Assembly: GCA_030747675.1 (NCBI GenBank)
Contig: JASLKH010000066.1
Coordinates: forward strand, 1 to 33,148
Direction: 5' to 3'
DNA: 33,148 nucleotides
Source of the DNA: Candidatus Thalassarchaeaceae archaeon
GTDB lineage: Archaea > Thermoplasmatota > Poseidoniia > Poseidoniales > Thalassarchaeaceae
This document shows, in pieces, positions 754 through 32,714 of the stretch. The notes beneath the pieces were generated by a model. It saw only the letters and a program-made list of their open reading frames with translations. It was not told where the DNA came from and searched no databases. How positions within the stretch are numbered: position 1 is the stretch's first letter; each line of letters opens with the position of its first letter. The position numbers and the translations under genes were made by a program.

Positions 754-804
754 TACCGTGACGGTATCGACACCGCTACTTGAATCCCGCTCTGTAAAGT
801 GCCC

Positions 805-1377: not shown

Positions 1378-1412
1378 GATTCTCATACCTTCCGTGTTCA
1401 ACCCTGTTTATG

Positions 1413-3431: not shown

Positions 3432-3565
3432 GGTACTACCGAAAAGATACTACCCCTTAGCCCTCTCCCTCAGAATCGGGTTTTCCATGGAGATGGTTGA
3501 ACACAAAAAACTCGGCGCGAAATGTAGCGACCCTTATACCATAATTGAGAGCGCCAAGAGTTGGG

Positions 3566-15180: not shown

Positions 15181-16770
15181 TCAAATCTCTTCTAAATCGT
15201 ATAATTCGTCATCCTCATCTTCAAAGTCATCCAGTACATCTTCAAGTTCTTCATCATATTCTTCATCATATTCGCCATATTCTTGGATTGATTTGTGCAC
15301 TTGCCAAAAACCAAATCCTCCCAGAAGTAACCCTACAGCAGTTACGAGAAGAGGATAATATTGCCAAGAGAAATCTTGTCCGATGATTGTACAGTCTTTG
15401 TGTGGAATTGCATACCGAATACTATCAAATCCATTGACTGATACCGTTACAGTTTTGATATCGGGGTCATTTGGATCAGCGTGTTTAGGAACGATGATTT
15501 CTTGATTAGAATTGGGATCTGTTGTATTGATAATTTGAATTTCAGCAAGTACTGCTTGACCAGGTCTCAAATCCTCATGAAATAATGAAAAATATAGTTG
15601 CACGTACTCTTTCCCACGTCGACTGGTTTCAGGATCTTCTAGAATCTTAGAATCACTTTCATAGCCTAGTCCAGAAATTGTTTCACCACGATCAGTCGTA
15701 GTATACACTTCGTCATACTCTGCATATAATGTGAAGGAGTAACCAGCTTTCAACTCATCTCCAAGGAAAGTCCCATCTCGTTCTTCTAATTGCACCAGTT
15801 CCTCAATTGTCCAGACTTTGGGGTCCTCTGGGTCGGCAGCCATTCCAGTAAGGACTGGCCCAGATATTAGAGGAGCAACAAACATTGCCCCTAACAAACC
15901 CATTCCTGTAAGTAGAATTGAAATTTCCTTGTATGGGATTGGGGGCAATAGGGCGAATCCGCCTACAAAAATTCCAATTGAGAACAAGCACCAAAATACC
16001 AATCCGAACCAAGAACTAGTGGCAGCGTCCTCAGTATTGTATCCCGATGCGCTTGCGTAGGGTGATTCATATCCTTCACCTGAATTAAGCCCAGGTATAG
16101 TTTCAACGTATGGCGGTAATACAGGAACATTCATCCATGACTCTCCATTGCCTAAGTACAGTGTATATCCATCAGTAATTCCTTGTGGTTTTTGAAATGT
16201 AATCCTGAGCCCTAAAGTTTCACCCTCAGGTATTTCTTCGATATTATGCCCTAAAAATTCAAAATTATATACTTGATTTTCATCAGGATTATCTATGACC
16301 TGTTGAGCAATATCTTGATTCCCTAATCGAAGAACAATGGTAACTTGTTTCGTGCAACTATCTTGCTCTAAATTACATATAATCGAAAGATGTATTTGCC
16401 CTGAAATAGGAGATGATTTATCCACTGGTATTGGTTCAGCAGGTGGATGAGATCCTTCCCAAGTGAAGGTTCGAGGCCCTCCACCATTGTTTGGGTCTCC
16501 AATGGAATTTACTTCTCCAACGCTATCGTCTGAATCTGAATCACTTGAGGCTGAATGTGTCCACATGGGCCAAGAAGATTGCGCCCCTCCTTGATTATTT
16601 GAGCCATACATTCTCATGATGTTTTGATTATAAGTGAGATTTTTTGATTCATCAGATTGCATCACACCAACATCATGATATTGAGCTGTTACTGGAGAAG
16701 TAAGGGTTAGAGTTGAGAGCAATAGCAAGCCCATCACGGCTAGTAAAGAACACCCCCAACGGCGCGGCAT
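15181..16770 (-). CDS. Hypothetical multi-pass membrane protein with signal peptide and two extracytoplasmic domains
   Basis: ATG at 16770 gives MPRRWGCSLLAVMGLLLLSTLTLTSPVTA (signal peptide), two central TM helices, a C-terminal TM and a very acidic tail. The track extension to 17247 is antisense to trm11 and is rejected. Confidence 0.75.
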   Translation of the reverse strand: MPRRWGCSLLAVMGLLLLSTLTLTSPVTAQYHDVGVMQSDESKNLTYNQNIMRMYGSNNQGGAQSSWPMWTHSASSDSDSDDSVGEVNSIGDPNNGGGPRTFTWEGSHPPAEPIPVDKSSPISGQIHLSIICNLEQDSCTKQVTIVLRLGNQDIAQQVIDNPDENQVYNFEFLGHNIEEIPEGETLGLRITFQKPQGITDGYTLYLGNGESWMNVPVLPPYVETIPGLNSGEGYESPYASASGYNTEDAATSSWFGLVFWCLFSIGIFVGGFALLPPIPYKEISILLTGMGLLGAMFVAPLISGPVLTGMAADPEDPKVWTIEELVQLEERDGTFLGDELKAGYSFTLYAEYDEVYTTTDRGETISGLGYESDSKILEDPETSRRGKEYVQLYFSLFHEDLRPGQAVLAEIQIINTTDPNSNQEIIVPKHADPNDPDIKTVTVSVNGFDSIRYAIPHKDCTIIGQDFSWQYYPLLVTAVGLLLGGFGFWQVHKSIQEYGEYDEEYDEELEDVLDDFEDEDDELYDLEEI

Positions 16771-16852
16771 AGACACGGGCAGAGGTGCGACCGTTATAGG
16801 ATTGAAGGCGGAGGGTGTGCTGCGGAGCAGCACAGGTGCCTGCACGAGATGA

Positions 16853-17992
16853 GTGGTGAAAACGTTGCACGAGGAAGCAATTGTCATCGGTGCTGGTTGG
16901 CACCCAACATTGTTTCGAGAGGAAGCACAGGCCTTGCTCGGAAATACATTCAAAATTATACATTCACATGCATTAATGATGTCAAAAAAAGATGCGAACA
17001 AATTTTCTAATAGGTCAAGTTTGGTTACAGAAGTTTTGAATCCTGCAGGGTTTGTTAATTTGAAAGATGCACCAACAATTTCTGAAGAAATATCTTCAGC
17101 ATTTCTTTCTCTCAATTTGCCTGTAGAGAAAATTGCAGTTCGTGTGGACAGATCGGGGGATAAACCAGTAACATGGTCAAGTCGAGAAATCGCAGGTCTC
17201 GTTGGTTTCCATCTTGTCGAAGCTGGCTGGCCAATTGATTTGAGCAATCCAGAAATAGTTCTACGGATCCATTTGCTTGCTCCTTCCGAATCTACTTCTT
17301 ATCCGGATACGGTAAATGCTGAAACTGTAGTTTCTTGGGGTATTACAATTTTCGAGGGAGATAATTGGAGCGAGCGCACTGCTCCAAACCGCCCATTTTT
17401 CAAACCAGTTAGCCTTGATCCAAAATTAGCCAGAGCCATGGTAAACCTTGCTTGTCCTAAAGGAAAGGATTTGTTAGACCCATTTTGTGGAACTGGTGGT
17501 CTTGTGATTGAAAGTATCCTATGTGGCCTTGACTCATATGGTAGTGATCTAGCATGGCCTATGGTAACCGGTACACGCCAAAACTCAGAATGGGCACAGA
17601 GTACTATGAATGGCACAGGTTCTTTCGAAGTACGTAATGGATCAGCAGTAGAATTAGCCAGTGTCTGGAATGACATTGCGGCATTTGGAAGTTTTGCATT
17701 TGACCCTCCATATGGCCGAAATGCTTGGAAATCAGAAGATGGGTTTGATTTGCTCAAGGGTTCATTGAAATCATGTTCACAGGTGGCTAAAGAGAATGCA
17801 CGTCTTGTTACTTTGATTCCCTGGTCACCAGAATCAATAGCACAACCGATTGAAAGTGGAATTTCTTTTGGCCAAAGTTGGTGTGAAGTTGCTAAGGCTT
17901 TCGAGGCTGTGGGTTGGTCAATACTTAGTACCCACGAGATTCGTGTTCATAGAAGCCTAGCGAGACTGCTAGTTATTGCAGAAAAAGAGTGA
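16853..17992 (+). CDS. trm11: THUMP-domain tRNA methyltransferase, Trm11/TrmG10 (m2G10) family
   Basis: FFKPVSLDPKLARAMVNLA, LLDPFCGTGG (SAM binding), FDPPYGR and C-terminal RVHRSLAR; N-terminal THUMP-like region. Confidence 0.82.
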   Translation: MVKTLHEEAIVIGAGWHPTLFREEAQALLGNTFKIIHSHALMMSKKDANKFSNRSSLVTEVLNPAGFVNLKDAPTISEEISSAFLSLNLPVEKIAVRVDRSGDKPVTWSSREIAGLVGFHLVEAGWPIDLSNPEIVLRIHLLAPSESTSYPDTVNAETVVSWGITIFEGDNWSERTAPNRPFFKPVSLDPKLARAMVNLACPKGKDLLDPFCGTGGLVIESILCGLDSYGSDLAWPMVTGTRQNSEWAQSTMNGTGSFEVRNGSAVELASVWNDIAAFGSFAFDPPYGRNAWKSEDGFDLLKGSLKSCSQVAKENARLVTLIPWSPESIAQPIESGISFGQSWCEVAKAFEAVGWSILSTHEIRVHRSLARLLVIAEKE

Positions 17993-20377: not shown

Positions 20378-21667
20378 TCACAGTGAGAAATCACTGAAAT
20401 CATCATCGTCTTCTTTGTGTGGTGGGTCTTGGACCACCGAATCGCTTTCAGAATCATTCTTTGATACTGTTTTTCGGGTCTTACGAGTTTTGCGAACATT
20501 CTTTTTAAATTGCTTAATAGGATCTTTAGATATTACTTCTTCTATTTTCCCTTCAGATTTTGGCTTTACATTCGGACGAGATGTTCTAGTTACTCCTCCA
20601 GTCACTCTTTGACCCCGTCTTCCTCCTCCAAATTCTTGGACGATACCTCGGAGACCTTTTTGCTTCAATTCTTGTTCCATTGCATGATCTGCTTGCATTT
20701 CCTTGATCTCTTCTTCGAATTTTTTAGCCTCTTCTGTCGCAGTTACTCCTGTTCCAGCGACATAATGTTGAGGCTCTTTGTCACTATCAGCTGAGTCAAG
20801 CACAGCACTCACATCAAATGTAGCAGCAACATTCGATTTATTGCCATCTCCAGTATTTCCCTTCCCAGATGTGGCTGCCTCAACTCTTGCATCATGGCGT
20901 TTTGCCTCTATTGCAGCAGACTTACCTGCTCGTAATTGAGAAGCAGAGAGCATAGTTTGTGCCCGCTCTTCAGCAGACATCATGACAACATTCCTTGAAA
21001 ATATATACATCGCACCTGCCCCTACAATGGATAGTAATAGGATGATGGTATACAATGTCCTACCGAAGAGTGGCACATCCCCTTTGACAATTTCATTACT
21101 TGAATCAACAACTCTTTCACCATTCCCATAGGTAATAGAAGTCACTAAGAAATTACCATCGCCTAGGGAATAACCACTGATTTCGATGGCTTGGTTGGTA
21201 TCTAGATACAAAATCGCATCCATGACATTTTCATTTTCCGGGACTAAACCAATAACCATCCAATCATCACCATAATCCTCCAAAATTTTTGCTAGGGTTG
21301 GTGATTCCCAATCTTTCTCAAGGTTTGCAATGCTGACGTATACATCAGTTGGATCTACATCCTGCGCACTAGAATAGGACATTTCTTTGACAATCCATGA
21401 TGCCATGGCTCGATAACTGCGTGAAGGTGATTCAAAACTTCGAGTTTGGACAAGTCTACCTGTGATTGTACTTTCATTTTCACTAACAACAGTAATTTCA
21501 TCTGTAGTGGAGGCGCCCAAATTATTCCAAATAGTTAGATTATTGTCTTCAAAATCCGTGCTGTATTCGCCAGAACCAGTGCCCCATGCTACATCAGTAT
21601 CGGACAAACATCCAGCTAACGCAGGCATGAGCAGCAAGAAGAATAGCAGAGGGGCAACGCGTCGCAC
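20378..21667 (-). CDS. Hypothetical lipoprotein-like membrane protein
   Basis: MRRVAPLLFFLLLMPALAGC lipobox, an internal TM (TLYTIILLLSIVGAGAMYIF) and a long charged, low-complexity cytoplasmic tail. Confidence 0.7.
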   Translation of the reverse strand: MRRVAPLLFFLLLMPALAGCLSDTDVAWGTGSGEYSTDFEDNNLTIWNNLGASTTDEITVVSENESTITGRLVQTRSFESPSRSYRAMASWIVKEMSYSSAQDVDPTDVYVSIANLEKDWESPTLAKILEDYGDDWMVIGLVPENENVMDAILYLDTNQAIEISGYSLGDGNFLVTSITYGNGERVVDSSNEIVKGDVPLFGRTLYTIILLLSIVGAGAMYIFSRNVVMMSAEERAQTMLSASQLRAGKSAAIEAKRHDARVEAATSGKGNTGDGNKSNVAATFDVSAVLDSADSDKEPQHYVAGTGVTATEEAKKFEEEIKEMQADHAMEQELKQKGLRGIVQEFGGGRRGQRVTGGVTRTSRPNVKPKSEGKIEEVISKDPIKQFKKNVRKTRKTRKTVSKNDSESDSVVQDPPHKEDDDDFSDFSL

Positions 21668-22546: not shown

Positions 22547-24151
22547 CTAATGTTCGTGTTCGTCATGATTTGAATACTCGTCGCACCATGCTTGCTTCTC
22601 ATCTGACCACACTTCATCTGTCATGCAGTCGTACCACACCTCAGTCTCTTCTTCAAGAAGATATTCCAAGTCTTCGATAAAATCGGATGTGTCCCAGTCC
22701 GAACCAGTGTAGACAATCCGTTTGTGCCCATTTTTGTCAATAATGAATGTTACAGTATTATGTCCTACTTCGTAAACCTCGTCATCACCCATATTCATTC
22801 CGTGCTCACCATGATGGTTGTCCATTCCAACACTGCTTTGAGAATCATCTGTGCCCGGTGGTGCTTGATTTTGAACCCACATATGAGAGTTACAATAATT
22901 TTCATTTTCTATTAACATTGTATGGGTATGCATATTGTAACATCCCGTAAACACAGTTGCACCATAATTGATGTAATAATTGAATGCATCACATTCAGAT
23001 TGTGACATATTCGAATTTGGTATATGTGTACCACTATTATAGCAACCAGTGAATGATGATCCATCCTGCATAGTATGGTTCTCCAAATACATATACGATT
23101 CACAATTGGTTTCGTTATCATTAGATACTGAATGTGAGGCCATATTGTAACAGATATCTTGTCCATCATTCATCGTGTAATTTTCAAAATATGAATAGGA
23201 TTCACATGCTATTTGTTGACTGTCTTCAGTCAAGGCATGTGTATCCATATTGTAACAGACCATATTGCTATCTGGTGTTGGTAGATATGTGATGTTTGCA
23301 TTTGATGCAACCCAAGCAATGTGATCAGTGTCTTGCATGACAATGATATCATCTGCCCCTTTGTCGGGGTCATAATCCCAAGATGAATTAGTTTCATTCC
23401 AATAGTATAGGTTCCACCACCACGAGGAGTCACTTGGTGTAACATAGTTGTCAATCCCTGTTAACATATTTCCGCAGCATTCGTATGCAGTTGAATTTAT
23501 TGAGATATTATTCATCATCATCGTGCTTGTGGTTAGGTTCCATCCAGTAGGATTTTCCTCTGGTAACATATCATGATGCCCATCTAGTAACGCCGTTGTG
23601 CTGTCAGGATAGAGCACTGCAACTTGATGTAGCATTACAGAATGATTCTGATGCTCATCATGATTTGAGTGATCAGAATTGATGTGGTCATTATCAACAA
23701 GTAGGTTGTAGTTGTCCCAAACTCCAGTACGATTATCATTAGTGAAGTCTGAAGAATTATCACTAGTAAGGTGTGGCCAAGTGTAACCTCGTGCTTCAGT
23801 CCATTCAAGCAAATTCTCAGGTGTATCCCTTGCTGGGTCAATAGTAATTGATAAGATGACCAAATCTTCTTCTTCTCCCAATTCATTGTGCACTGTTTTC
23901 AAATTTGCTTCAATAGCTAAGCAAACATCGGGGCAGTGTGTATATGTGAAAGCAATAACTACAACTTTCCCATCAAAATCAGAGAGTGAAATAACTTGCC
24001 CGTCTTGAGAATAGAGAACAAAATCTGGCGCATTGGATGCAGGGTTGTATTCCATTCCATTGAAATCGTAATCATCCTTGTTAGATCCATTGCCAAGACA
24101 TCCAGAGAGTGCAATTAAAAAAGTCATCAAGAATGCTACTTTCTTGCTCAT
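22547..24151 (-). CDS. sco1: SCO1/SenC copper chaperone lipoprotein with a ~300-aa multi-domain insertion
   Basis: Lipobox ALSGC; FTYTHCPDVC (CxxxC at nt 23935-23921); SITIDPARDTPE; the distal His in VGHNTVTFIIDKNG (nt 22762-22760) is displaced by the insert. ATG at 24151 is preferred to 24169. Confidence 0.88.
   Translation of the reverse strand: MSKKVAFLMTFLIALSGCLGNGSNKDDYDFNGMEYNPASNAPDFVLYSQDGQVISLSDFDGKVVVIAFTYTHCPDVCLAIEANLKTVHNELGEEEDLVILSITIDPARDTPENLLEWTEARGYTWPHLTSDNSSDFTNDNRTGVWDNYNLLVDNDHINSDHSNHDEHQNHSVMLHQVAVLYPDSTTALLDGHHDMLPEENPTGWNLTTSTMMMNNISINSTAYECCGNMLTGIDNYVTPSDSSWWWNLYYWNETNSSWDYDPDKGADDIIVMQDTDHIAWVASNANITYLPTPDSNMVCYNMDTHALTEDSQQIACESYSYFENYTMNDGQDICYNMASHSVSNDNETNCESYMYLENHTMQDGSSFTGCYNSGTHIPNSNMSQSECDAFNYYINYGATVFTGCYNMHTHTMLIENENYCNSHMWVQNQAPPGTDDSQSSVGMDNHHGEHGMNMGDDEVYEVGHNTVTFIIDKNGHKRIVYTGSDWDTSDFIEDLEYLLEEETEVWYDCMTDEVWSDEKQAWCDEYSNHDEHEH
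22880..23257 (-). repeat. Four ~35-aa protein repeats, C-Y-N-x3-H-x9/10-C, inside the SCO protein
   Basis: CYNMDTHALTEDSQQIACESY, CYNMASHSVSNDNETNCESY, CYNSGTHIPNSNMSQSECDAF, CYNMHTHTMLIENENYCNSH. Confidence 0.88.
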
Positions 24152-24208
24152 ATTACCATCTCGCAACATTATGAGTATAGTAGTTTGTTTTTACCGCTTA
24201 GACAAAAG

Positions 24209-24339: not shown

Positions 24340-24717
24340 TCAGTAGTAATTCCCGGGTCGACACCATGCAGGCAGTCCACCAGCAGCACCCGGGTGCGTT
24401 AAACCGATGAAGAGAACCATCACAATAATGAAAAAGACAGGAAATAAAGCGGTAGCAGTCAAAACCTGACTATCTGGGTCACCTTTAAGATGCATGAAAA
24501 TAGCTGCAATTCCATATCCCTTTACAATTCCAACAATGACTAAAATCCATACAACAGTAGTCATGCTAACAGTTCCTTTCATTGAGAAAGTTAGTGCAAC
24601 TGCAACGACTTCAATTGCTGTAAAAATCATCAGTATTGCAAAATTCATGTTGTACGCATCAAAGCCAAACAGTGTGTGGTGGTGTTCGTGTTCATCATGG
24701 TGTGTTTCTTCACTCAT
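24340..24717 (-). CDS. coxD: Heme-copper oxidase subunit IV (prokaryotic CoxD/CtaF-like)
   Basis: Three TM helices, FTAIEV and IAAIFMHLKGD motifs, His-rich N-terminus; last protein gene of the cox block. Confidence 0.8.
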   Translation of the reverse strand: MSEETHHDEHEHHHTLFGFDAYNMNFAILMIFTAIEVVAVALTFSMKGTVSMTTVVWILVIVGIVKGYGIAAIFMHLKGDPDSQVLTATALFPVFFIIVMVLFIGLTHPGAAGGLPAWCRPGNYY

Positions 24718-24730
24718 TTCTTCTTCCTCC

Positions 24731-25834
24731 CTAATACAAATAGAATGCTGGGAATACCAACACCCAAACTAAATCGACAAAGTGCCAATACAATCCAAAG
24801 TACTCGATACTAACTGCGTTTGCAGGTGTGTATCCCCCTTGGAACGCTTTGATTACCATATAGAATAGTGCCACCATTCCGCCAAAGACGTGAACTCCGT
24901 GGGTTCCAGTGGTCACGTAGAATGTAGAAGCAGACATTCTTACATCAACGATGTATGATTGCATCGCTCCTTCAGCACAATGATGCCCATCCCATTCAGA
25001 GCAGACTTGATATGTGTATTCGCTAGCATGTATGGTAAAACCATCTTCAAGTAAACTTGGAGAATAGAATAGAGGGTCATCGTGTGACCCAATCTCAAAC
25101 CCAATGAACCATTCCACCATCTTGAATATCAAGAATAATGTAGCCAATAGAAGTGTTGTTAGAAGGTACTTTCCAACTTTTCTACTGCGTTCCGCCTCAC
25201 TCAAACTCTTGTCTTTCGCAGTCTTAAGTGCTAGGACAATTGTAAATGATGAAATAATCAGTGCGAATGTATTGATTGCTCCAGGAATTAATGTATCAGG
25301 CATGAATCCCACAGCTGCATGGGCAGTTTCCTGATGCCAACCACCTTCTGCAATGAAGTAAGACGCAGGGAGCCAGCAGGGAGATCCCGGCTCAAATCCA
25401 GGTGTCCCTACAACTGATGCGCAACTGGGTATTCCAGAACGATATCGGATGTATGTGCTGAATAGGCTACTAAATACCATCATTTCAGACATTAGGAACA
25501 TCCAAAGTGCAATCTTACGAACATCGATATTACGGAATGGAACCCCCCTCGATTTGGCTTCATAGGAACCATCATGTCCCCAATCTTGTTTCCAGAATAT
25601 AATTATTCCAGCAAAGAAAATTGCTAGGCCAGTAATAAGTAGCCATACTTCACCCACATTGACCGCATATTCCCAAAAGCCATCTCCAGTATCATTCCAT
25701 GATTGTGTAAACACTTTTGCGAATCCAAGAAGGAAGATGCTTGAACCAAATGCCATCATAATAGGGGCCCATGAATTATGTGGTGTATGCCACCCATGAT
25801 GATCATCATGATGCTCGTTATTTCCGTAACTCAT
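24731..25834 (-). CDS. coxC: Cytochrome c oxidase subunit III
   Basis: WMFLMSEMMVFSSLF, INTFALIISS, FYVTTGTHGVHV and GLYWHFVDLVW. ATGA overlap with the subunit I stop. Confidence 0.93.
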   Translation of the reverse strand: MSYGNNEHHDDHHGWHTPHNSWAPIMMAFGSSIFLLGFAKVFTQSWNDTGDGFWEYAVNVGEVWLLITGLAIFFAGIIIFWKQDWGHDGSYEAKSRGVPFRNIDVRKIALWMFLMSEMMVFSSLFSTYIRYRSGIPSCASVVGTPGFEPGSPCWLPASYFIAEGGWHQETAHAAVGFMPDTLIPGAINTFALIISSFTIVLALKTAKDKSLSEAERSRKVGKYLLTTLLLATLFLIFKMVEWFIGFEIGSHDDPLFYSPSLLEDGFTIHASEYTYQVCSEWDGHHCAEGAMQSYIVDVRMSASTFYVTTGTHGVHVFGGMVALFYMVIKAFQGGYTPANAVSIEYFGLYWHFVDLVWVLVFPAFYLY

Positions 25835-28185
25835 TGTTCCACCTCGGTGTCATCTGGTACCATCATTCTTTCTAACATTCTACCAAACCAGCCAGGCTCT
25901 CCTTCATGCTCATGCAAACTCATGTCTAGTACAGGTGGGTTGTCAGGATCATGAGATGGAGTTGGAGGTGGACTTGAAGTCATCCATTCCATTGACCAGC
26001 CACCCCATGGGTTGTCTGGAGCTTTTGCTCCACGTAGTGAACTACTGAGCATATTGTAAACCAATATCAGATTGCTCGCAAAGAAACAGAACGCTGCAAT
26101 GGTAATCATCATGTTCCAATCTGCTGCTTCTGGTGGCAGTGCATCATACATATCTGTGGTGAGGAAGTATGTGTGCTGCCTTCGAGGCATACCCCATATT
26201 CCAAGACGATGCATTGGCCAAAAGATGAGATTGTATGAAATAAATCCAGTAACGAAGTGGATGATGCCCAATTTTTCATCTAACATTCTTCCAGTTGCTT
26301 TCGGGAACCAATAATATATTCCTGAATATATTCCGAACACAATACCTCCAACGAAAACATAGTGGAAGTGGGCGACTACGAAATAAGTTTCATGCAAATG
26401 TAAATCCATAGCAATGGAAGGGAAATACATTCCAGAGATTCCACCTAAGGTGAATGTTACTAAGAATCCTAAAGCCCACAAGGTATGTGTTCGATAGACT
26501 AAACTCCCACCATGCATCGTTTGTAGCCAGTTGAAGACCTTAATTCCGGTTGGAACTGCTACAAGCATAGTTGTCAGCATAGTGACGAATCGGAGTGTAG
26601 GGTCCATACCACTGGTGAACATGTGATGTCCATAAACGATGAAACCAAGAATACCAATACCTGCAAGAGCAAATACCATTGATTTGTATCCAAATACTGT
26701 CTTGCGAGCACTGGTAGAGATGACTTCTGAAATAATACCAAAAGCGGGAACAACAACAACATACACTTCTGGGTGACCAAAATACCAGAATAGATGACTC
26801 CAAAGTAGAGGGTCACCTCCACCGGCGACTTCGTAAAATGTAGTTCCTATTGTCCTATCAAGGAATACCTGAATTAGTCCAATTCCGAAAGCGGGAATTG
26901 AGATAAAGAGCATCAGAACAGAGATAAATATTGACCAACTGAATAGAGGCATTTGCATCCAACCCATACCCGGGGCTCGCATTGTGGCAAATGTAGTCAT
27001 GAAATTGACACCTGCTACGGTGGATGATGCTACTGCCAATATTTGTCCTGCAACCCACATAGTCGCTCCAGAGTGGGCTGTATTGGATACAATATAAGGT
27101 GCATATCCCGTCCACCCTGTATCTGCTGCTTGGCCTGAGAATATACCTGTGAAAATGAGGAGTGCCGCAGCGGGATTTAACCAGAATGCCAGTGCATTCA
27201 ATCTTGGAAGTGCTAAGTCATGCGCACCGATTTGTAGTGGTACAATCCAGTTTCCTAGACCTGCAATCATTGGCATAGCTGCAAGGAAAATCATGACAGT
27301 TCCATGCATTGTAAAGAATTGATTATACTCATCAGTAGTCAAGAAGTCATTTCCAGGGGTTGCTAATTGGATTCTAAAAATTAATGCAAATAATCCACCA
27401 ACACCAAGGAAAAATAAACCGTTAATGAAATACAAAGTTCCTACCTTTTTGTGATCGGTACTTGTCAACCAATCTGAAATCCAAGGCCAGAAATTGTCCC
27501 ATGTGAATGCATCAGGGTCCCGCCGGTAGAATACCCACAATAAGCATGATGACGTGATAACAACCATCAATAAAATAGCACTACCAAGGACAACTAAACC
27601 CCGTGCTTGTTCAATTGGTTGCTCTCCAATCGTGATGTCAATTTTGTTCCATTGATCCTCACCAGAAGCTTTGTGGTCACCATTTACTGAGTTGATGTGA
27701 AGAACAAACTTCACTCCACCTGAATCAGGCGCAGTCCATTCAACAGTCCAATTGGATTGATCATTTCCTGAATTTGTATCAGGAGTTGATGCGCCATTGT
27801 GTGTCAAACTACCATCAGGATTCATTTTAACCAGGTTTGAGTCAAGGATTGCAAAAGTTCCCGCACTTGCCCATAGATTGAAACCTGCTACAGCACTGGG
27901 TTCTGCAACAGTATCTGCACGTGAGTCAGTGAATGATATATCGAGAGTGTAAGTTTCACTTGCATTGAAGTAGATATTGCCAGAAGCATCAACAGGCAGC
28001 CCTTCTAAACTTGGTGCAACATCATCACTAGCTGAGGTGCTGTGACAATAACAGCCAGCATCTTTGATGGATTGATAAGGAATCCCAGTTGGTGAAGAAA
28101 ATGCATTAGGTGCAATTGCTATAGCAAAAAGTAAAACCCCAATAATTGCAATTGTGCGCGGTTTTTTCAAAGACTTAAACATCAT
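25831..28185 (-). CDS. coxA: Cytochrome c oxidase subunit I (A1 type) with N-terminal signal peptide, Reeler-like domain and extra TM
   Basis: TDHKKVG, FTMHG, D-channel AHDLALPRLN, FGHPEVY (A1-type Glu and cross-link Tyr), YGHHMF, K-channel PTGIK and AHFHY. Start at 28185 follows the SD-like GAGGTG. Confidence 0.95.
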   Translation of the reverse strand: MMFKSLKKPRTIAIIGVLLFAIAIAPNAFSSPTGIPYQSIKDAGCYCHSTSASDDVAPSLEGLPVDASGNIYFNASETYTLDISFTDSRADTVAEPSAVAGFNLWASAGTFAILDSNLVKMNPDGSLTHNGASTPDTNSGNDQSNWTVEWTAPDSGGVKFVLHINSVNGDHKASGEDQWNKIDITIGEQPIEQARGLVVLGSAILLMVVITSSCLLWVFYRRDPDAFTWDNFWPWISDWLTSTDHKKVGTLYFINGLFFLGVGGLFALIFRIQLATPGNDFLTTDEYNQFFTMHGTVMIFLAAMPMIAGLGNWIVPLQIGAHDLALPRLNALAFWLNPAAALLIFTGIFSGQAADTGWTGYAPYIVSNTAHSGATMWVAGQILAVASSTVAGVNFMTTFATMRAPGMGWMQMPLFSWSIFISVLMLFISIPAFGIGLIQVFLDRTIGTTFYEVAGGGDPLLWSHLFWYFGHPEVYVVVVPAFGIISEVISTSARKTVFGYKSMVFALAGIGILGFIVYGHHMFTSGMDPTLRFVTMLTTMLVAVPTGIKVFNWLQTMHGGSLVYRTHTLWALGFLVTFTLGGISGMYFPSIAMDLHLHETYFVVAHFHYVFVGGIVFGIYSGIYYWFPKATGRMLDEKLGIIHFVTGFISYNLIFWPMHRLGIWGMPRRQHTYFLTTDMYDALPPEAADWNMMITIAAFCFFASNLILVYNMLSSSLRGAKAPDNPWGGWSMEWMTSSPPPTPSHDPDNPPVLDMSLHEHEGEPGWFGRMLERMMVPDDTEVEQ

Positions 28186-28192
28186 TTCCACC

Positions 28193-28840
28193 TCAAGCAT
28201 GTACCTCTATAATTGCGGTCATGTACCCATGGTCATCTCCACAGTATTCTGCACAGTAAAGTAAGTTTGTTCCGATTTCATCAGTGCTGGGGGTGTAATA
28301 CATTCGAGTCTCTTGCCCAGGTAGAGCATCTTCTTTAATACCCCAATCAACAAAGAAAGGTGAGTGTGTCACATCTTCAGAGTATAGTATGAACGTATAG
28401 GATTCCCCCGCCTTTAAACTTAGAATCACGTTTGATCTTCCTTCTACATCCATGGTTTGACTACTATCACAAATGTCAGTGTTATTTACTTCTGAACAGT
28501 CAAAACTCCAACTCCATTGGGAAGCAGTAATTGTGACAATATGTGCATCTTCATCCTCAGTCCATATTTCATCAAGAGGACCCCATGAAATGAATGTGAG
28601 ATAAACAATGAGAATGAATGGGACAACAGTCCAAGTGACTTCCAATTTCAAATCGTCATTTTCAACAGGAAATACCCCTGGAGTCAGGTTGTCAATATTG
28701 TTATCCGAACCATCCTTAGAGCGGTATTTTAAGGAGTGATGAAACAACCATGAAAATGTGAAAATACCGACTAAAATAGCCCATAGCGTGAATTCATCAA
28801 ATAGGTCATTGAAGATGTCGCCTCCTGCCTTCATTACCAT
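28193..28840 (-). CDS. coxB: Cytochrome c oxidase subunit II (CuA), without a fused heme c domain
   Basis: Two TM helices, LEVTWTVVP, ASQWSW, DVTHS and CuA motif CAEYCGDDHGYM; no CxxCH. Confidence 0.93.
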   Translation of the reverse strand: MVMKAGGDIFNDLFDEFTLWAILVGIFTFSWLFHHSLKYRSKDGSDNNIDNLTPGVFPVENDDLKLEVTWTVVPFILIVYLTFISWGPLDEIWTEDEDAHIVTITASQWSWSFDCSEVNNTDICDSSQTMDVEGRSNVILSLKAGESYTFILYSEDVTHSPFFVDWGIKEDALPGQETRMYYTPSTDEIGTNLLYCAEYCGDDHGYMTAIIEVHA

Positions 28841-29810: not shown

Positions 29811-32714
29811 TTATACAATACGAATTACCGCTCGAATTTTTAATTCACCAGATAAATTGTTTTGAATATCATCTAATTCCATCAATCGTCTTGCTAAATC
29901 ATCATGGAGTCGGGAAATGAGGCCATTCTTCATTCGAATCCAACGTGGATCTGGCACGCCACCATCTTGCTGTGTTCTCCACTCAGCTTCTGCTAGTTGC
30001 CCCATCTCTCTTTGGATTCGAGCATTCCATGCTTGTTCGGCATTAATGCGTAATTCATCCATTAAAGGAATTAATCGCTGATTTTCAGCGTTTAATAGTG
30101 CTAATTTGATAGGTTCTGTCAGAGATTCTAGATTCATCATTTGTTCATCAATTTCTGCTTGTTCTATCAACAGAAGTGGTTTTGCTCCGTAATCGTTTAG
30201 AGGAACGCCTGCAGCATCTAGATACAGCCATCTACGTACTGTTGTTTTGGTTAAACCGTTGACTGTCCAATCTATACATATACACCAGATGGAATTAAGA
30301 GGCGTAGAATCTATTCTAGGACTCTTTAGATTGTACAGAACTGGGTCTTTATTTTCATCAATAATCCATCTAACCAATGGATGATAAGGCGTTAAAAATA
30401 TATGCGCATGCTCTTTATTTCTCGCAATTTCCCGTTCAAATATCACATGAAACCAATGTGGTCCTGAACTGTTACTTGTTTTTCGAATTAATTCACTCCA
30501 TCCAACAGTGTCTTGATCATTTTTCATTTCATCCGAAACACGTTCTGCGAGAATTTGAACGATAGAATCATCTAAACGCAACATCCAGATCCCATCATCA
30601 CTGGCTTGATGTATTTGAGCAAGGTCACCAAGATGATACATAATCCATTCTCTTAATTGGGTTGATGTTACTCCCAATGAATGCTTTTTGATGGAATTTC
30701 GCAAGGCAGCAATTCCCGGATCAGGCCCAATCCATTCTCGTTCATCTACAGATCTTTCATTCAACCACATCTCTCTCTTATCAAGTAATGTTAGAACATT
30801 AGAATTGTCATCTTCAACATCTTCTGCAAGAATCATTTCAGGTCTTACTGGAGTACCTGCAACTCTATTTAACTCAGTTCTTGCAACCATTCGCATTGCT
30901 TGTCCAAGAAGAGGATCAAGCATACCTAGAGCATCTTCAAAGATTCGAATTCTGTGATACAAACGATGTAAAATTGCAGCATCAATTGTACCTTCCACAG
31001 CAAGGTTGAGGATTTCAATTTCTTCTGCAGTTTGACCAAATCGATCTAGTCTTCCAATGCGTTGCTCAATCCGCATAGGATTCCATGGAAGATCATAATT
31101 TACCAAACGGTGGCAGTGTTGTTGATCCAAACCCTCACTACCAACTTCACTTGAGAGAAGAATGTCAATTTCTCCGGTTCTGAATCTTTCTCTAATATTG
31201 TCTCGTTCATTCATATTGGTCCTTCCAGTGATTATTTCACTATTGAAACCGGCTGCATTCAGCCGTTCGTGTAAATGCTCAAGTGTAGCATGGAAATGGC
31301 TGAATAGAAGAATTCCACCCTCATCATCAGATTCTAAACTAGTGGTTAACCAAGCTTCAAATGCTTCATATTTTGAATCTGTAGCACCTAATGATTCAGC
31401 AGCTTCTATGAGTTCTGAAAGGTTGCCTAACCTTCTCAACATTCGAATTTCAACATCACCTAAATCGACATTTTCATCAAATTCAATATCTGTATTTTCC
31501 TCAAAATCTTCTCTTGCTTGGGTTCGAAGTTGTCTTAGCACATGTCGAGCAAATGCTGGTAGACACGATGAGGCCATTCGTTCAGGTACGATTAGTGCCC
31601 AATCGAAGACATAGCCCTCAGGATGTCTCATCTGTACAAGAGTTCTAGCCCATCGCCGTGCGGCTTCGTATAATCTCCATTCTTCAGTGCTTAATTGTAC
31701 ATCCAATGTAACAGCTTTGCGACTTGCGATGTGCCAATCTAAATCTCTCTTTCTAGTTCTTACCAATAAATCATTTAGAGGTCGAAGAGAACGAACCAAA
31801 TCTGCAAGTTTCTGCCGAGAATTTTCCAGACGATTTAATTGCCATTCATTTTCATTTAATGCCAACTCAATCGCTTTTTCTAAACGAGGGTCTCCAGTAA
31901 AACCAATAGTTTGTTCAAGTGCCCGAAAACGATCGATTGCTCGTGGTAAATTCGGCGTTGATTGTGCAATTCCATCGAGAACATCATTCAACATTCTTGT
32001 GGGCCCCATCGTGCGATGAAATTGTTCTATTGTAGGCCAACGATCAGGTGCAATCAAACTTAGTTGCACCCACAGTTCATCATCTCTAAGGTTTACAGGG
32101 GTCGCAGTCATTAAAACACACTTTTTGCTGCGCATTGCAAGTAATTGTACAGCATCATGTAACCGACTTCGAGGATTGCGGCAATGGTGTGCTTCATCAA
32201 TGATAGTTAGCATTGTTTCTGGCATTATTTCCATCAACCGTTCAAGTGTATTTGCTCGCCTTAGAATACCATGGCTAACAATAATTACACGTGGTTCACC
32301 ATTTGCAATTCTTTCGACAATAGAGAGTAATCTTCGTCCACTATCTGCAACGATTGCATCAATATCTCCACGATGGTGTAATTCTTGTTTCCATTTTGAT
32401 TTTAATGACCCTGGGCATGCAATAATCACGGCACCATTTTCGCCGATTGCGTGTAGTCTTCTTAGGATCCTGATTGCTGAGATAGTTTTTCCCAACCCCA
32501 CTTCATCAGCAATCAACAATCCACGCCATGGAGATCCAGCTAATTTAGCGGCAGGAAGGTGTTGGTGTGGTTGATCTTGCCACCTTCCAAACGCATGCAG
32601 TGGGGCGAAATCAGTGGTTGGATGAAGCAAATTCAGATTCACCCACCTTAGAGCGGGATTAATTCTACGAACGACTTCGTGCCCAGCCTCTTCAGTGGCG
32701 CCTGATGTGGTCAT
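29811..32714 (-). CDS. SWI2/SNF2 family helicase/ATPase (RapA/HepA-like core) with C-terminal helical region
   Basis: IADEVGLGKT, IIDEAHH, MTATP, LLVRTRK, LLFSHF, SEVGSEGLD and YDLPWNPMRIEQRIGRLDR. Confidence 0.92.
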   Translation of the reverse strand: MTTSGATEEAGHEVVRRINPALRWVNLNLLHPTTDFAPLHAFGRWQDQPHQHLPAAKLAGSPWRGLLIADEVGLGKTISAIRILRRLHAIGENGAVIIACPGSLKSKWKQELHHRGDIDAIVADSGRRLLSIVERIANGEPRVIIVSHGILRRANTLERLMEIMPETMLTIIDEAHHCRNPRSRLHDAVQLLAMRSKKCVLMTATPVNLRDDELWVQLSLIAPDRWPTIEQFHRTMGPTRMLNDVLDGIAQSTPNLPRAIDRFRALEQTIGFTGDPRLEKAIELALNENEWQLNRLENSRQKLADLVRSLRPLNDLLVRTRKRDLDWHIASRKAVTLDVQLSTEEWRLYEAARRWARTLVQMRHPEGYVFDWALIVPERMASSCLPAFARHVLRQLRTQAREDFEENTDIEFDENVDLGDVEIRMLRRLGNLSELIEAAESLGATDSKYEAFEAWLTTSLESDDEGGILLFSHFHATLEHLHERLNAAGFNSEIITGRTNMNERDNIRERFRTGEIDILLSSEVGSEGLDQQHCHRLVNYDLPWNPMRIEQRIGRLDRFGQTAEEIEILNLAVEGTIDAAILHRLYHRIRIFEDALGMLDPLLGQAMRMVARTELNRVAGTPVRPEMILAEDVEDDNSNVLTLLDKREMWLNERSVDEREWIGPDPGIAALRNSIKKHSLGVTSTQLREWIMYHLGDLAQIHQASDDGIWMLRLDDSIVQILAERVSDEMKNDQDTVGWSELIRKTSNSSGPHWFHVIFEREIARNKEHAHIFLTPYHPLVRWIIDENKDPVLYNLKSPRIDSTPLNSIWCICIDWTVNGLTKTTVRRWLYLDAAGVPLNDYGAKPLLLIEQAEIDEQMMNLESLTEPIKLALLNAENQRLIPLMDELRINAEQAWNARIQREMGQLAEAEWRTQQDGGVPDPRWIRMKNGLISRLHDDLARRLMELDDIQNNLSGELKIRAVIRIV

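What the first reader, a model, noticed from the sequence alone, without database searches (positions are those of the whole stretch)
27481..28185. Cytochrome oxidase subunit I fused to an exported Reeler-like domain with a contracted CYCH motif
Before the normal CoxA start (WLTSTDHKK) there are about 235 extra residues: a signal peptide, a ~155-aa soluble domain and one more TM. The domain has Reeler/choice-of-anchor-V-type hallmarks (GCYCH, GFNL, LTH, WTVEWTAP, NSVNGD...DQW). The frame is continuous and an SD-like GAGGTG precedes the start. CxCH (nt 28053-28042) is one residue shorter than the heme c motif; a contracted CxCH heme site has been shown in an anammox multiheme cytochrome. Subunit II lacks a heme c domain, so this could be a built-in electron-entry or metal-binding module on the outer face. 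In eukaryotes, Reeler domains also accompany a membrane redox enzyme (ferric-chelate reductase). Heme or metal binding here is unproven.
Basis: partly seen in the sequence, partly recalled or inferred. Interest (0 to 1): 0.82.

Follow-up and report, generated by a model that had tools for sequence, protein, structure and literature searches.

The report
Archaeal oxidase with cytochrome-f-like head
In the abundant ocean archaea of Marine Group II, the main subunit of the oxygen-reducing respiratory enzyme carries an extra outward-facing domain that looks like cytochrome f and has a shortened haem-attachment motif. It is probably a built-in electron inlet and one member of an undescribed class of cytochromes, though no haem has been measured.

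Summary
ORF 25831-28200 (-) encodes one continuous protein: signal peptide, a ~155-aa exported domain, an extra membrane helix, then a complete A-type haem-copper oxidase subunit I.

- **Domain identity:** it passes NCBIfam choice-of-anchor V (73.7 bits, cut-off 42). Its predicted fold matches Reeler domains and cytochrome f about equally well (Z 10-11).
- **Fusion is real:** about 50 protein clusters carry it, including closed Marine Group II genomes, two sister-family genomes and one more distant Thermoplasmatota genome. A split form (coxI, then a separate domain gene) also exists.
- **Motif:** G-C-x-C-H is a family signature, not a local oddity. Cys, Cys-His and a distal His are kept in about 95-100% of 118 relatives. 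Cys spacing varies (1, 2, 4-8), and one lineage has canonical CxxCH.
- **Maturation system:** 54 of 61 Marine Group II genomes have archaeal CcmE, yet none has a canonical cytochrome c.
- **Paralogue:** one sits upstream of Rieske/cytochrome b in 6 of 6 genomes, where c1 or f would be.

Best reading (about 0.55): a covalent-haem, cytochrome-f-like electron-entry module feeding CuA. Haem binding is untested.

First readers of this scan noted the same motif on another contig of this genome (e1-5723191/2/3).

The parts
28193..28840 (-). coxII: subunit II, 215 aa. It has two membrane helices and a CuA cupredoxin domain, and no cytochrome c domain.
   Evidence: Pfam COX2 4.1e-8. The CuA ligands H159, C196, E198, C200, H204 and M207 are invariant in 39 orthologues.
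28189..28194 (-). SD-like GAGGTG. It lies 3-6 nt before the ATG codons at 28185 and 28182 and overlaps the end of coxII.
   Evidence: Read directly from the sequence. Orthologues start at the M7 equivalent.
25831..28200 (-). Whole ORF of the fusion protein: choice-of-anchor V domain, extra membrane helix, then CoxI. It is 789 aa from the first ATG and about 783 aa from the likely start.
   Evidence: About 50 orthologous clusters of 770-786 aa exist.
28096..28182 (-). Signal peptide (residues 7-35): basic n-region, hydrophobic core, A-F-S before the predicted cleavage site.
   Evidence: AF2 helix 14-28. The -1 position is A, S or G in 106 of 112 family members. Cleavage is inferred, not shown.
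27625..28095 (-). Exported choice-of-anchor V domain (residues 36-192), a Reeler/cytochrome-f-like beta sandwich.
   Evidence: NF041895 73.7 bits. AF2 pLDDT 86. VIA-align Z 10.4-11.0 to F-spondin reeler and Z 9.2-10.6 to 13 cytochrome f entries.
28042..28053 (-). C50-Y-C52-H53, the proposed haem c attachment motif with proximal His. G49 precedes it.
   Evidence: Invariant in 19 orthologues. In the family, C 113/114, C 114/114 and H 114/114. Cys spacing varies 1-8 with CH always adjacent. CxxCH occurs in f26 homologues.
27799..27801 (-). H134 (T-H motif), a candidate distal haem ligand or metal ligand.
   Evidence: Invariant in orthologues and present in 112 of 118 family members. Any role as a ligand is inferred.
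27523..27603 (-). Extra transmembrane helix TM0 (residues 200-226). It returns the chain to the cytoplasmic side before CoxI helix 1. The conserved F-Y-R..P..F motif follows it.
   Evidence: AF2 helix 200-226. F224, Y225, R226, P229 and F232 are invariant.
25954..27471 (-). Canonical A-type haem-copper oxidase subunit I core (residues 244-749), with the GHPEVY motif and the His ligands conserved.
   Evidence: PF00115 3.7e-141. TIGR02891 629 bits. Invariant H299, H476, Y480, H525, H526, H611, H613.
24731..25834 (-). coxIII, 367 aa. Only the C-terminal ~70 aa match COX3.
   Evidence: PF00510 5.6e-11.
24340..24717 (-). coxIV-like small subunit, 125 aa.
   Evidence: PF03626 3.6e-10.
22547..24169 (-). 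SCO1/SenC-type copper chaperone with a long Cys/His-rich extension, 540 aa. It lies downstream in the same strand block.
   Evidence: PF02630 1.3e-21.

Best explanation
The gene encodes subunit I of an A-type (CuA-containing) haem-copper oxygen reductase of a Marine Group II (Poseidoniales) archaeon. A choice-of-anchor V domain is fused to its N-terminus.

Proposed mechanism:
1. The signal peptide exports the domain to the outer face of the membrane.
2. The archaeal variant of cytochrome c maturation System I (CcmC, CcmE with CxxxY, CcmF) attaches haem covalently to Cys50 and Cys52.
3. His53 is the proximal axial ligand. The distal ligand is His134 or, as in cytochrome f, the new alpha-amino terminus.
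4. One extra membrane helix tethers the domain above the oxidase, where it acts as a resident one-electron relay feeding CuA of subunit II. This is the job done by the cytochrome c domain fused to subunit II in caa3 oxidases.
5. The upstream donor is a paralogous membrane-anchored domain encoded with the Rieske/cytochrome b complex, either directly or through the plastocyanin-family copper proteins that most Marine Group II genomes encode.

Shown:
- anatomy, conservation, family membership and predicted fold
- genomic contexts
- presence of Ccm genes and failure to find canonical cytochrome c

Inferred:
- haem attachment and ligation
- signal-peptide cleavage
- direction and partners of electron transfer
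For: 1. The motif behaves like a haem c motif.
- Cys, Cys-His and H134 are kept in 95-100% of 118 relatives that share only about 12% mean column identity.
- The Cys-Cys spacing varies: 1 residue in 103, 2 in 1, 4 in 6, 5, 6 or 8 in 4. His always follows the second Cys.
- In Thermoplasmatota family f26, homologues that pass the NF041895 cut-off carry canonical CxxCH at the same place (GCTSCH, CISCH, CSSCH, GCTACH).

2. The maturation machinery has no other visible client.
- This genome has a CcmF-like gene, a CcmC-like gene and a CcmE ending in G-C-P-S-K-Y.
- CcmE was found in 54 of 61 Poseidoniales genomes and in 16 of 16 genera.
- Pfam Cytochrom_C and Cytochrome_CBB3 were found in 0 of 61.
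- A census of this 78%-complete genome found no signal-peptide protein with CxxCH. The exported CxCH proteins are the six choice-of-anchor V paralogues plus the Rieske protein.
- Outside the order, 17 of 23 genomes with strong hits to the domain have CcmE. Five of the other six were tested and all have CcmF/CcmC-type genes. Among genomes without the domain, about 10 of 132 have CcmE.

3. The fold and layout resemble cytochrome f.
- Thirteen cytochrome f structures align at Z 9.2-10.6, with 133-137 residues at 2.9-3.4 A.
- The alignment always runs from model residue 36 (the predicted mature N-terminus) to cytochrome f residue 1.
- Like cytochrome f, the motif lies about 14 residues after the cleavage site and a C-terminal membrane anchor follows.
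- The mature N-terminus X-[P/S]-x-G-[I/V] and its spacing to the motif are conserved family-wide.

4. The genomic contexts are respiratory.
- A 275-305-aa paralogue lies upstream of DUF7318, Rieske and cytochrome b in 6 of 6 genomes from two families.
- In G073 one paralogue follows NrfC-NrfD and lies 4 kb from ccmB-ccmC. Another abuts a multicopper oxidase.
- Other fusions join the domain to a plastocyanin-type domain (P0066) and to a DUF4079 membrane domain (P0194).

5. The link to the oxidase is independent of this genome.
- Fusions occur in Marine Group II, in sister family f4 and in family f27.
- In G080 a second oxidase has an unfused coxI, followed with a 4-nt overlap by a separate 204-aa domain gene.

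6. The oxidase takes electrons from outside. Its CuA ligands are invariant. The nearest non-archaeal CoxII relatives are caa3-type proteins with a fused cytochrome c, which the Marine Group II protein lacks.
Against: - No haem, spectrum or metal content has been measured for any member of this family, and I found no paper on it.
- CxCH is a rare haem motif. The only experimentally shown case I know of is in an anammox multihaem cytochrome (Ferousi et al. 2019, cited in PMC8042395). As I recall, the E. coli Ccm system does not readily handle CxCH. I could not verify that here.
- The resemblance to cytochrome f is structural only and ties with the cofactor-less Reeler domain (Z 10.4-11.0). Neither Pfam nor a family profile finds cytochrome f by sequence.
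- I could not read model coordinates, so the proximity of H134 to the motif, and of the domain to CuA, is untested.
- Plastocyanin-family proteins occur in 55 of 61 Marine Group II genomes. A conventional carrier to CuA therefore exists, and the fused domain need not be the inlet.
- CcmE was not detected in 7 of 61 Marine Group II genomes, nor in family f26.
- The co-occurrence counts come from related genomes and are not independent.
Confidence: 0.55

Rival explanations
1. Non-haem metal site. Cys50, Cys52, His53 and His134 bind copper, or iron or zinc, directly. The domain would then be either a small redox centre or a copper-handling module that helps load CuA or CuB on the outer face. In the second case it would be a functional analogue of Cox11, PCuAC or YcnI.
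For: - Cys/Cys/His/His is a plausible soft-metal ligand set.
- The operon ends with an SCO1-type copper chaperone.
- No Cox11 was found in this genome.
- The copper-binding beta sandwich YcnI appears among weaker fold matches (Z 7.0).
- One relative is fused to a plastocyanin-type domain and another lies beside a multicopper oxidase.
Against: - A copper-loading role does not explain paralogues in Rieske/cytochrome b and NrfCD operons, which have no copper site.
- Cys spacing of 1 to 8 residues with His fixed after the second Cys is typical of haem c motifs, and canonical CxxCH variants exist. A fixed-geometry metal site would not be expected to vary this way.
- It leaves the Ccm system of Marine Group II without a substrate.
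Confidence: 0.2
2. No cofactor. The domain is a structural Reeler-type module, for example a docking platform for a copper-protein donor, an assembly or supercomplex spacer, or a surface-binding module. The two Cys would form a small disulfide loop.
For: - Eukaryotic Reeler domains have no known cofactor and are regarded as adhesion modules (PMC10691727).
- The fold match to F-spondin reeler is as good as the match to cytochrome f.
- Many family members are joined to Ig-like, fn3 or CARDB surface-protein domains and to PGF-CTERM or other sorting anchors.
- Variable Cys spacing is also compatible with a disulfide loop.
Against: - The His after the second Cys is kept in 114 of 114 sequences and H134 in 112 of 118, which a disulfide loop does not require.
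- F-spondin reeler aligns only from residue 41-43 on. By sequence it lacks both the motif segment and the His.
- The repeated association with quinol-oxidising modules, the oxidase and ccm genes is unexplained.
Confidence: 0.12
3. The domain binds haem but is not the electron inlet of this oxidase. It would do something else on the outer face, for example accept electrons from or donate them to external substrates, sense redox state, or hold the bc-type complex and the oxidase together as a supercomplex.
For: - Three to ten paralogues per genome, some on very large surface proteins of 800-1800 aa, suggest several roles.
- Cupredoxins are available as conventional donors to CuA.
Against: - Covalent tethering to subunit I, or a translationally coupled gene right after coxI, is conserved across at least three families. 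That argues for a role inside the oxidase.
- CoxII has lost or never had the cytochrome c domain of its nearest bacterial relatives.
Confidence: 0.1

Closest known systems
caa3-type cytochrome c oxidases (Thermus, Bacillus, Rhodothermus): a class I cytochrome c domain fused to the C-terminus of subunit II
   Same: Both are A-type haem-copper oxidases with a resident, covalently tethered electron donor on the outer face next to CuA. The nearest non-archaeal relatives of this CoxII are such proteins.
   Different: Here the extra domain is on subunit I, at the N-terminus, held by an additional membrane helix. It is a beta sandwich rather than an alpha-helical class I cytochrome c. Its motif is CxCH rather than CxxCH, and haem binding is not shown.
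Cytochrome f (PetA) of the cytochrome b6f complex
   Same: - Predicted beta-sandwich fold (Z 9.2-10.6 over 133-137 residues).
- The Cys...Cys-His motif lies about 14-20 residues after the signal-peptide cleavage site.
- The mature N-terminal segment is conserved.
- A single C-terminal membrane anchor follows.
- A paralogue is encoded with Rieske and cytochrome b.
- Plastocyanin-family proteins occur in most of these genomes.
   Different: No detectable sequence similarity. There is no small domain. The motif is CxCH, not CxxCH. A conserved His134 is available as sixth ligand, whereas cytochrome f uses the alpha-amino group of Tyr1 (recalled from the 1ctm structure paper's title and text). This copy is fused to an oxidase.
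Reeler domain (Pfam PF02014: reelin, F-spondin, ferric-chelate reductase 1/SDR2, insect Noduler)
   Same: Same fold (Z 10.4-11.0) and weak but real sequence similarity. Of 118 relatives, 42 hit PF02014 at E up to 10, best 3.1e-7. The family profile finds F-spondin at E 0.003. In SDR2 the Reeler domain also sits on a membrane redox protein (PMC10691727).
   Different: Eukaryotic Reeler domains lack the N-terminal G-C-x-C-H segment and the T-H histidine in the alignment, and no cofactor is known for them. This protein itself scores below the Pfam cut-off (13.5 vs 21 bits).
Contracted CxCH haem site of the anammox tetrahaem cytochrome (Ferousi et al. 2019, J Biol Chem 294:16953; cited in PMC8042395 and PMC11492766)
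   Same: Both have one residue between the two Cys. That case is the precedent that such a motif can carry covalent haem.
   Different: That is a single unusual site inside an alpha-helical multihaem protein of a bacterium. Here CxCH is the only motif and is the norm of a large beta-sandwich family. The paper itself was not readable here.
NCBIfam NF041895, choice-of-anchor V domain-containing protein
   Same: This domain is a member by score (73.7 bits vs 42).
   Different: The family name refers only to its variable C-terminal anchors. I found no paper on the family and none proposing a function, and I found no mention of a fusion to CoxI.

Membership tests
NCBIfam NF041895 choice-of-anchor V domain | Score above the curated cut-off of the family model | tested here: met
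   73.7 bits, E 1.5e-20, cut-off 42, residues 26-186 matched to profile positions 2-146 of 150.
Pfam PF02014 Reeler domain | Score above the Pfam gathering threshold | tested here: not met
   13.5 bits against a cut-off of 21, E 0.11. Among relatives, 42 of 118 match at E up to 10, best 3.1e-7. The relation is at superfamily level.
Pfam PF02014 Reeler domain | Reeler beta-sandwich fold | tested here: met
   F-spondin reeler 3coo, 2zot and 2zou: Z 10.4-11.0, 117-120 residues, rmsd 3.0-3.5 A. Foldseek E 3.5e-6. This rests on a predicted model with pLDDT 86.
c-type cytochrome | Cys-Xn-Cys-His haem attachment motif in an exported segment | tested here: met
   C50-Y-C52-H53 lies 14 residues after the predicted signal cleavage site. 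The spacing is non-canonical (n = 1). Relatives have n = 2, 4, 5, 6 or 8.
c-type cytochrome | Cytochrome c maturation system encoded in the genome | tested here: met
   CcmF-like gene (76 bits), CcmC-like gene and CcmE (34.9 bits, CxxxY type) in this genome. CcmE found in 54 of 61 genomes of the order.
c-type cytochrome | Haem covalently bound through thioether bonds | not testable with these tools
   Needs haem staining, pyridine haemochrome spectra or mass spectrometry.
Cytochrome f (PetA; Pfam PF01333/PF16639) | Sequence match to the cytochrome f models | tested here: not met
   No Apocytochrome f family appears for this protein at E up to 10. None appears among the 25 Pfam families listed for the 118 relatives, out of 73 matched. 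The family profile finds no cytochrome f chain in the PDB.
Cytochrome f (PetA; Pfam PF01333/PF16639) | Large-domain fold with the N-terminal haem segment and a C-terminal membrane anchor | tested here: met
   Thirteen cytochrome f entries at Z 9.2-10.6, with model residue 36 aligned to chain residue 1. Complex structures also align the membrane helix. The scores tie with Reeler.
A-type haem-copper oxidase subunit I (CtaD/CoxA) | COX1 domain with the six His ligands and the His-Tyr (GHPEVY) motif | tested here: met
   PF00115 at 471 bits. H299, H476, Y480, H525, H526, H611 and H613 are invariant. TIGR02891 scores 629 bits, just under its equivalog cut-off of 670.75.
caa3-type oxidase | Cytochrome c domain fused to subunit II | tested here: not met
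   CoxII is 215 aa with COX2_TM and COX2 only. Thirty-nine orthologues are 211-266 aa.

The most novel reading that the evidence does not exclude
Choice-of-anchor V domains may be a large, unrecognised class of beta-sandwich c-type cytochromes whose normal attachment motif is CxCH. CxxCH-based surveys would therefore miss them.

On this reading:
- They are homologous both to cytochrome f and to eukaryotic Reeler domains.
- In Marine Group II and related Thermoplasmatota they replace cytochromes c1/f and c altogether. The chain would run from Rieske/cytochrome b with an f-like subunit, through a plastocyanin-type protein, to an f-like domain fused to oxidase subunit I.
- Cytochrome f would gain its first relatives outside oxygenic photosynthesis.
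- Reeler domains of animal proteins such as ferric-chelate reductase 1 would descend from a haem protein.
Probability: 0.3. Interest if true: 0.9.

Novelty: new variant of a known kind. Interest (0 to 1): 0.8.

Why it matters
Marine Group II archaea are among the most abundant heterotrophs of the surface ocean and have never been cultured. How electrons travel from their quinol-oxidising complex to oxygen is therefore known only from gene lists.

This work gives a concrete, testable wiring. A family of membrane-anchored domains sits at both ends of that gap, and it would explain why these genomes keep a cytochrome c maturation system while having no recognisable cytochrome c.

If the domains bind haem:
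- A one-residue-shorter attachment motif becomes the rule for a whole protein family rather than a single curiosity.
- Surveys of archaeal and environmental cytochromes that search for CxxCH undercount them.
- The substrate range of the archaeal Ccm variant has to be rethought.
- The long-standing isolation of the cytochrome f fold, and the unknown function of Reeler domains, both gain an experimental handle.

If they do not bind haem, the family is still a conserved Cys/His module tied to respiratory complexes and worth characterising.

Tried and rejected
- **Complex prediction.** I ran complex prediction on the CuA domain of CoxII with the exported domain and haem. It returned 'no answer' (score 0.00, mark 0.32). 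This is neither support nor evidence against.
- **Read-level check of the fusion junction.** I relied on independent assemblies and closed genomes instead.
- **DNA pattern census for CxxCH in closed genome G027.** It gave 141 hits against 85 for the control and no frame information, so I abandoned it. I did not download another genome piecemeal.
- **Profile search of the PDB and Pfam scans.** These found Reeler but no cytochrome f by sequence.
- **phmmer of the domain against the PDB.** No hit.
- **ESM Atlas.** It returned only unnamed Thermoplasmatota clusters, one with 11% Reeler.
- **System II hypothesis for the CxxCH-bearing lineage.** ResB (PF05140) was not found in 5 of 5 genomes. I can claim no link between motif spacing and maturation system.
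- **Cox11-like copper chaperone idea (CFCF motif analogy).** I kept it only as part of the metal-site rival, because paralogues occur in operons with no copper site.
- **Domain tree.** The bc-linked paralogues form a clade (92/99) and the main Marine Group II fused copies another (98/96). The backbone is unresolved, so one fusion event cannot be told from several.
- **Rieske-type 2Fe-2S reading.** I considered it because Rieske box II is also C-x-C-H (PMC4122944). I rejected it because the domain has only two conserved Cys and no box I.
- **Literature searches.** Searches for choice-of-anchor V, CXCH plus haem, Reeler plus haem, and Marine Group II plus cytochrome c biogenesis found no description of this family or fusion. 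The 2015 survey of archaeal cytochromes c searched for CxxCH (PMC4429474).
Full report
**1. What is in the sequence**

The minus strand of the window carries an oxidase operon:
- coxII, 28193-28840
- a 789-aa ORF, 25831-28200
- coxIII, 24731-25834
- a coxIV-like gene, 24340-24717
- a 540-aa SCO1/SenC-type protein, 22547-24169

The long ORF is uninterrupted.
- Pfam COX1 covers residues 252-704 (E 3.7e-141).
- The first ~235 residues are extra: a signal-peptide-like stretch (7-35), a soluble domain (36-192) and one additional membrane helix (200-226).
- GAGGTG at 28189-28194 precedes the ATG codons at 28185 and 28182. Orthologues start at the equivalent of the second one.
- One extra helix before the 12-helix CoxI core fits the topology. 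It lets an exported N-terminal domain connect to helix 1, which starts on the cytoplasmic side. This is an inference from the known CoxI topology.

**2. The fusion is real and old**

- A search restricted to the first 235 residues found about 50 clusters (90% identity level) of 770-786 aa. All have the COX1 domain and 32-75% identity in the extension. Where a name is given, sources call them Poseidoniales, Thalassarchaeum or Thermoplasmatota.
- They sit on many independent contigs, up to 1.68 Mb. Two single-contig genomes have the same coxII, fusion, coxIII order (G027, G003).
- Outside Marine Group II, the fusion occurs in sister family f4 (G080, 740 aa; G198, 745 aa) and in a more distant Thermoplasmatota family, f27 (G097, 761 aa).
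- G080 also has a second oxidase with an unfused 503-aa coxI. A separate 204-aa gene for the same domain (motif CICH) follows it with a 4-nt overlap. Fused and split forms of one gene pair are classical evidence of a functional link.

**3. What the domain is**

- It passes the NCBIfam model NF041895, choice-of-anchor V (73.7 bits, cut-off 42). It misses Pfam Reeler (13.5 bits, cut-off 21).
- Among 118 relatives, 42 touch the Reeler model at E up to 10, best 3.1e-7. A profile of the family finds the F-spondin reeler domain in the PDB at E 0.003.
- An AlphaFold2 model built on 118 sequences has mean pLDDT 86 and shows a beta sandwich between the signal helix and the membrane helix.
- Foldseek ranks F-spondin reeler first (E 3.5e-6), with cytochrome f from rank 11.
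- An aligner that does not depend on Foldseek, run against 48,161 representative chains, puts cytochrome f first: 2jxm_B at Z 10.6, 135 residues, 2.9 A. Reeler scores 8.8 there.
- On re-alignment of Foldseek's top 1000, reeler entries score Z 10.4-11.0 and thirteen cytochrome f entries Z 9.2-10.6. The next fold, cohesin, scores 8.6.
- Every cytochrome f alignment runs from model residue 36 to cytochrome f residue 1. In the b6f complex structures the C-terminal membrane helix aligns as well.

So the domain is Reeler-related by sequence. By predicted structure it matches Reeler and the cytochrome f large domain equally well.

**4. The motif**

In 19 fusion orthologues these positions are invariant: G49, C50, C52, H53, G106, F107, H134, W151, W155, P158, N170, V172, N173, G174 and D182.

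An exhaustive HMMER search of 1.84 billion representative proteins found 309 relatives at E 0.001 or better.
- Most are 200-250 aa: signal peptide, domain, C-terminal anchor.
- Of the best 150, 133 contain CxCH.
- In an alignment of 118 (mean column identity 12%), conservation is C50 in 113 of 114, C52 in 114 of 114, H53 in 114 of 114 and H134 in 112 of 118.
- The spacing between the two Cys is 1 in 103 sequences, 2 in one, 4 in six, and 5, 6 or 8 in four. His always follows the second Cys directly.

CxCH is therefore the signature of the family, not a peculiarity of this gene. Its variation pattern, a free loop length with a fixed Cys-His, is that of haem c attachment motifs (established knowledge of CXnCH variants).

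In Thermoplasmatota family f26, homologues above the NF041895 cut-off carry the canonical motif at the same position: GCTSCH, CISCH, CSSCH and GCTACH.

The segment before the motif is also conserved.
- The -1 position of the predicted signal-peptidase site is A, S or G in 106 of 112.
- X-[P/S]-x-G-[I/V] follows, with Gly in 110 of 112.
- About eight residues later comes G-C-x-C-H.
- A conserved, fixed-length mature N-terminus is what one would expect if the new N-terminus folds back onto the cofactor. I recall that cytochrome f does this, with the alpha-amino group of Tyr1 as the sixth haem ligand. I did not test it here.
- H134 is the alternative sixth ligand.

**5. A maturation system without a known client**

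This genome (1.68 Mb, 78% complete) encodes:
- a 748-aa CcmF-like protein
- a CcmC-like fragment at a contig end
- a 134-aa CcmE ending in G-C-P-S-K-Y, the CxxxY form described for archaea (Allen et al. 2006, cited in PMC4429474)

A six-frame census of this genome found no ORF with both a signal peptide and CxxCH. The exported CxCH proteins are the six choice-of-anchor V paralogues and the Rieske protein.

| Family searched | Genomes with a hit, of 61 Poseidoniales (16 genera, 3 families) |
|---|---|
| Choice-of-anchor V domain | 61 (3-10 copies each) |
| CcmE | 54 (all 16 genera) |
| Pfam Cytochrome_CBB3 | 0 |
| Pfam Cytochrom_C | 0 |

In a sample of 201 Thermoplasmatota genomes:
- 23 genomes outside Marine Group II have strong hits to the domain.
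- 17 of those 23 have CcmE.
- Five of the remaining six were tested and all have CcmF/CcmC-type genes.
- Among the roughly 132 non-Marine-Group-II genomes without the domain, about 10 have CcmE.

These counts come from related genomes and are not independent. They still show that the domain does not occur without haem-lyase-type genes in the genomes I checked.

The 2015 survey of archaeal cytochromes c searched for CxxCH and does not mention Marine Group II (PMC4429474). Such proteins would have been missed.

**6. Respiratory neighbourhoods of the paralogues**

Contig C98 of this genome carries, in order:
- a 279-aa paralogue (signal peptide, domain, C-terminal helix)
- a DUF7318 protein
- a twin-arginine Rieske-type protein
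- cytochrome b (PF00033, 3.9e-41)
- a 946-aa Fe-S/CCG protein

In five further genomes from two families, the single cytochrome b gene has a 285-304-aa paralogue 1.9-2.4 kb upstream on the same strand. That is the place and the architecture of cytochrome c1 or f.

Other contexts:
- In G073, one paralogue follows NrfC-like and NrfD genes and lies 4 kb from ccmB-ccmC. Another abuts a multicopper oxidase.
- One relative joins the domain to CARDB and a plastocyanin/azurin domain (P0066).
- Another joins it to Ig domains and a DUF4079 membrane domain, with a weak (sub-threshold) prokaryotic cytochrome b561 (Ni_hydr_CYTB) hit (P0194).

The bc-linked paralogues form their own clade (92/99), apart from the main clade of oxidase-fused copies (98/96). 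The deeper branching is unresolved.

**7. The oxidase side**

- CoxII keeps all CuA ligands (H159, C196, E198, C200, H204, M207), so the enzyme takes electrons from an outer-face donor rather than from quinol.
- Its nearest relatives outside the archaea are caa3-type subunits II with a fused cytochrome c domain. The 211-266-aa Marine Group II proteins lack that domain.
- CoxI keeps the haem and CuB histidines and the GHPEVY motif.

**8. Most likely mechanism**

The exported domain is a cytochrome-f-like, covalently haem-binding module that stays tethered above the oxidase and passes single electrons to CuA. A paralogue plays the c1/f role on the Rieske/cytochrome b complex.

Electrons could pass directly between the two domains, for instance in a supercomplex. 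They could also pass via plastocyanin-family proteins, which I found in 55 of 61 Marine Group II genomes though not in this incomplete one.

I give this reading about 0.55. Haem attachment, ligation, signal cleavage and electron flow are inferred.

**9. Rivals**

| Reading | Weight | For | Against |
|---|---|---|---|
| Non-haem metal site, possibly copper handling | 0.2 | The ligand set and the SCO1 neighbour | Paralogues in copper-free operons, the variable spacing, the CxxCH variants and the idle Ccm system |
| Cofactor-free Reeler-type docking or structural domain with a disulfide loop | 0.12 | The tie with reeler structures and the many surface-protein architectures | The invariant His residues and the respiratory contexts |
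| Haem domain with another role than electron entry | 0.1 | Remains possible | — |

**10. Limits**

- No coordinates were available to me, so distances such as H134 to the motif and the domain to CuA are untested.
- The complex prediction gave no answer.
- The precedent paper for CxCH haem could not be read here.
- My recollection that the E. coli Ccm system handles CxCH poorly is unverified.

**11. Novelty**

Oxidases with a built-in cytochrome are known (caa3). This one differs in three ways:
- the subunit that carries the domain
- the way the domain is anchored
- the kind of domain

I found no paper describing the family's function, the fusion, or a Marine Group II cytochrome.

I file it as a new variant of a known kind. 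There is a 0.3 chance that it marks a new class of c-type cytochromes linking cytochrome f and Reeler domains.

First readers of this scan had independently noted CxCH and CxxxCH Reeler-like proteins on contig C34 of the same genome. I confirmed those motifs but found no Pfam match for the neighbouring membrane protein.

Noticed in passing
window 22547-24169 (-): The SCO1/SenC-type protein is 540 aa, and only residues 48-135 match SCO1. The long C-terminal part contains four spaced repeats of a C-Y-N-x-x-x-H type motif (for example CYNMDTH, CYNMASH, CYNSGTH, CYNMHTH) and His-rich ends. It could be an additional metal-binding array.
   Followed up: no
window 24731-25834 (-): CoxIII is 367 aa but only its last ~70 residues match COX3. 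The N-terminal 290 residues include a His-rich start and a Cys-containing exported-looking insert.
   Followed up: no
own genome contig C98 (locus L010) 1810-7671: This is a conserved complex III-like operon: choice-of-anchor V paralogue (279 aa), DUF7318, TAT-signal Rieske-like protein (no Pfam hit at E 0.01 but CPHLCC...CICHSS boxes), cytochrome b, then a 946-aa Fe-S/CCG (HdrD-like) protein. The same order occurs in G027 and G003.
   Followed up: yes
own genome contigs C48 (L011 1837-2784) and C99 (L012 1693-2703): Two divergent copies of one three-gene arrangement exist: pntB-like gene, choice-of-anchor V protein with a C-terminal multi-helix membrane region, then a long TatC. In four other genomes the equivalent paralogue lies 8-17 kb from ccmE. 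I did not resolve whether the two copies are true paralogues or a mixed bin (contamination 2.45%).
   Followed up: partly
own genome contig C34 (L013), 831-aa and 376-aa ORFs: A large surface protein starts with the domain (GCSCH) and is followed by many repeats. The next gene has a related N-terminus with C-G-G-S-C-H, and a 210-aa membrane protein with no Pfam match follows. Contig C44 ends with what appears to be the same N-terminus.
   Followed up: partly
locus L042 (G080:C44:76800-80500): A second oxidase operon in a sister-family genome has an unfused 503-aa coxI. A 204-aa choice-of-anchor V gene (CICH) follows it with a 4-nt overlap. This is a split version of the fusion.
   Followed up: yes
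locus L031 (G073:C3:1-20000): The cluster reads ArsR regulator, NrfC-like Fe-S protein, NrfD, choice-of-anchor V protein (CTCH), two unknown exported proteins, ccmB, ccmC, then a CcmF-like gene. A further paralogue lies beside a multicopper oxidase at 605-3444.
   Followed up: partly
proteins P0066 and P0194: Two other domain fusions exist. One is choice-of-anchor V + CARDB + plastocyanin/azurin domain (647 aa). The other is choice-of-anchor V + Big_7 repeats + DUF4079 membrane domain with a weak (sub-threshold) prokaryotic cytochrome b561 (Ni_hydr_CYTB) hit (798 aa), which recalls the eukaryotic Reeler-DOMON-cytochrome b561 proteins.
   Followed up: no
G003, G012, G044, G056: In Marine Group IIb genomes, a 670-820-aa ORF with a plastocyanin-family domain lies about 10-11 kb from the cox operon on the same contig.
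   Followed up: no
window 29811-32714 (-), 8978-12232 (+), 15181-17247 (-), 20378-21667 (-): Several large ORFs in the window are unannotated. Those of 1084, 688 and 429 aa had no Pfam match at E 0.001. The 967-aa ORF next to the operon was not scanned; to my eye it looks like a helicase.
   Followed up: no
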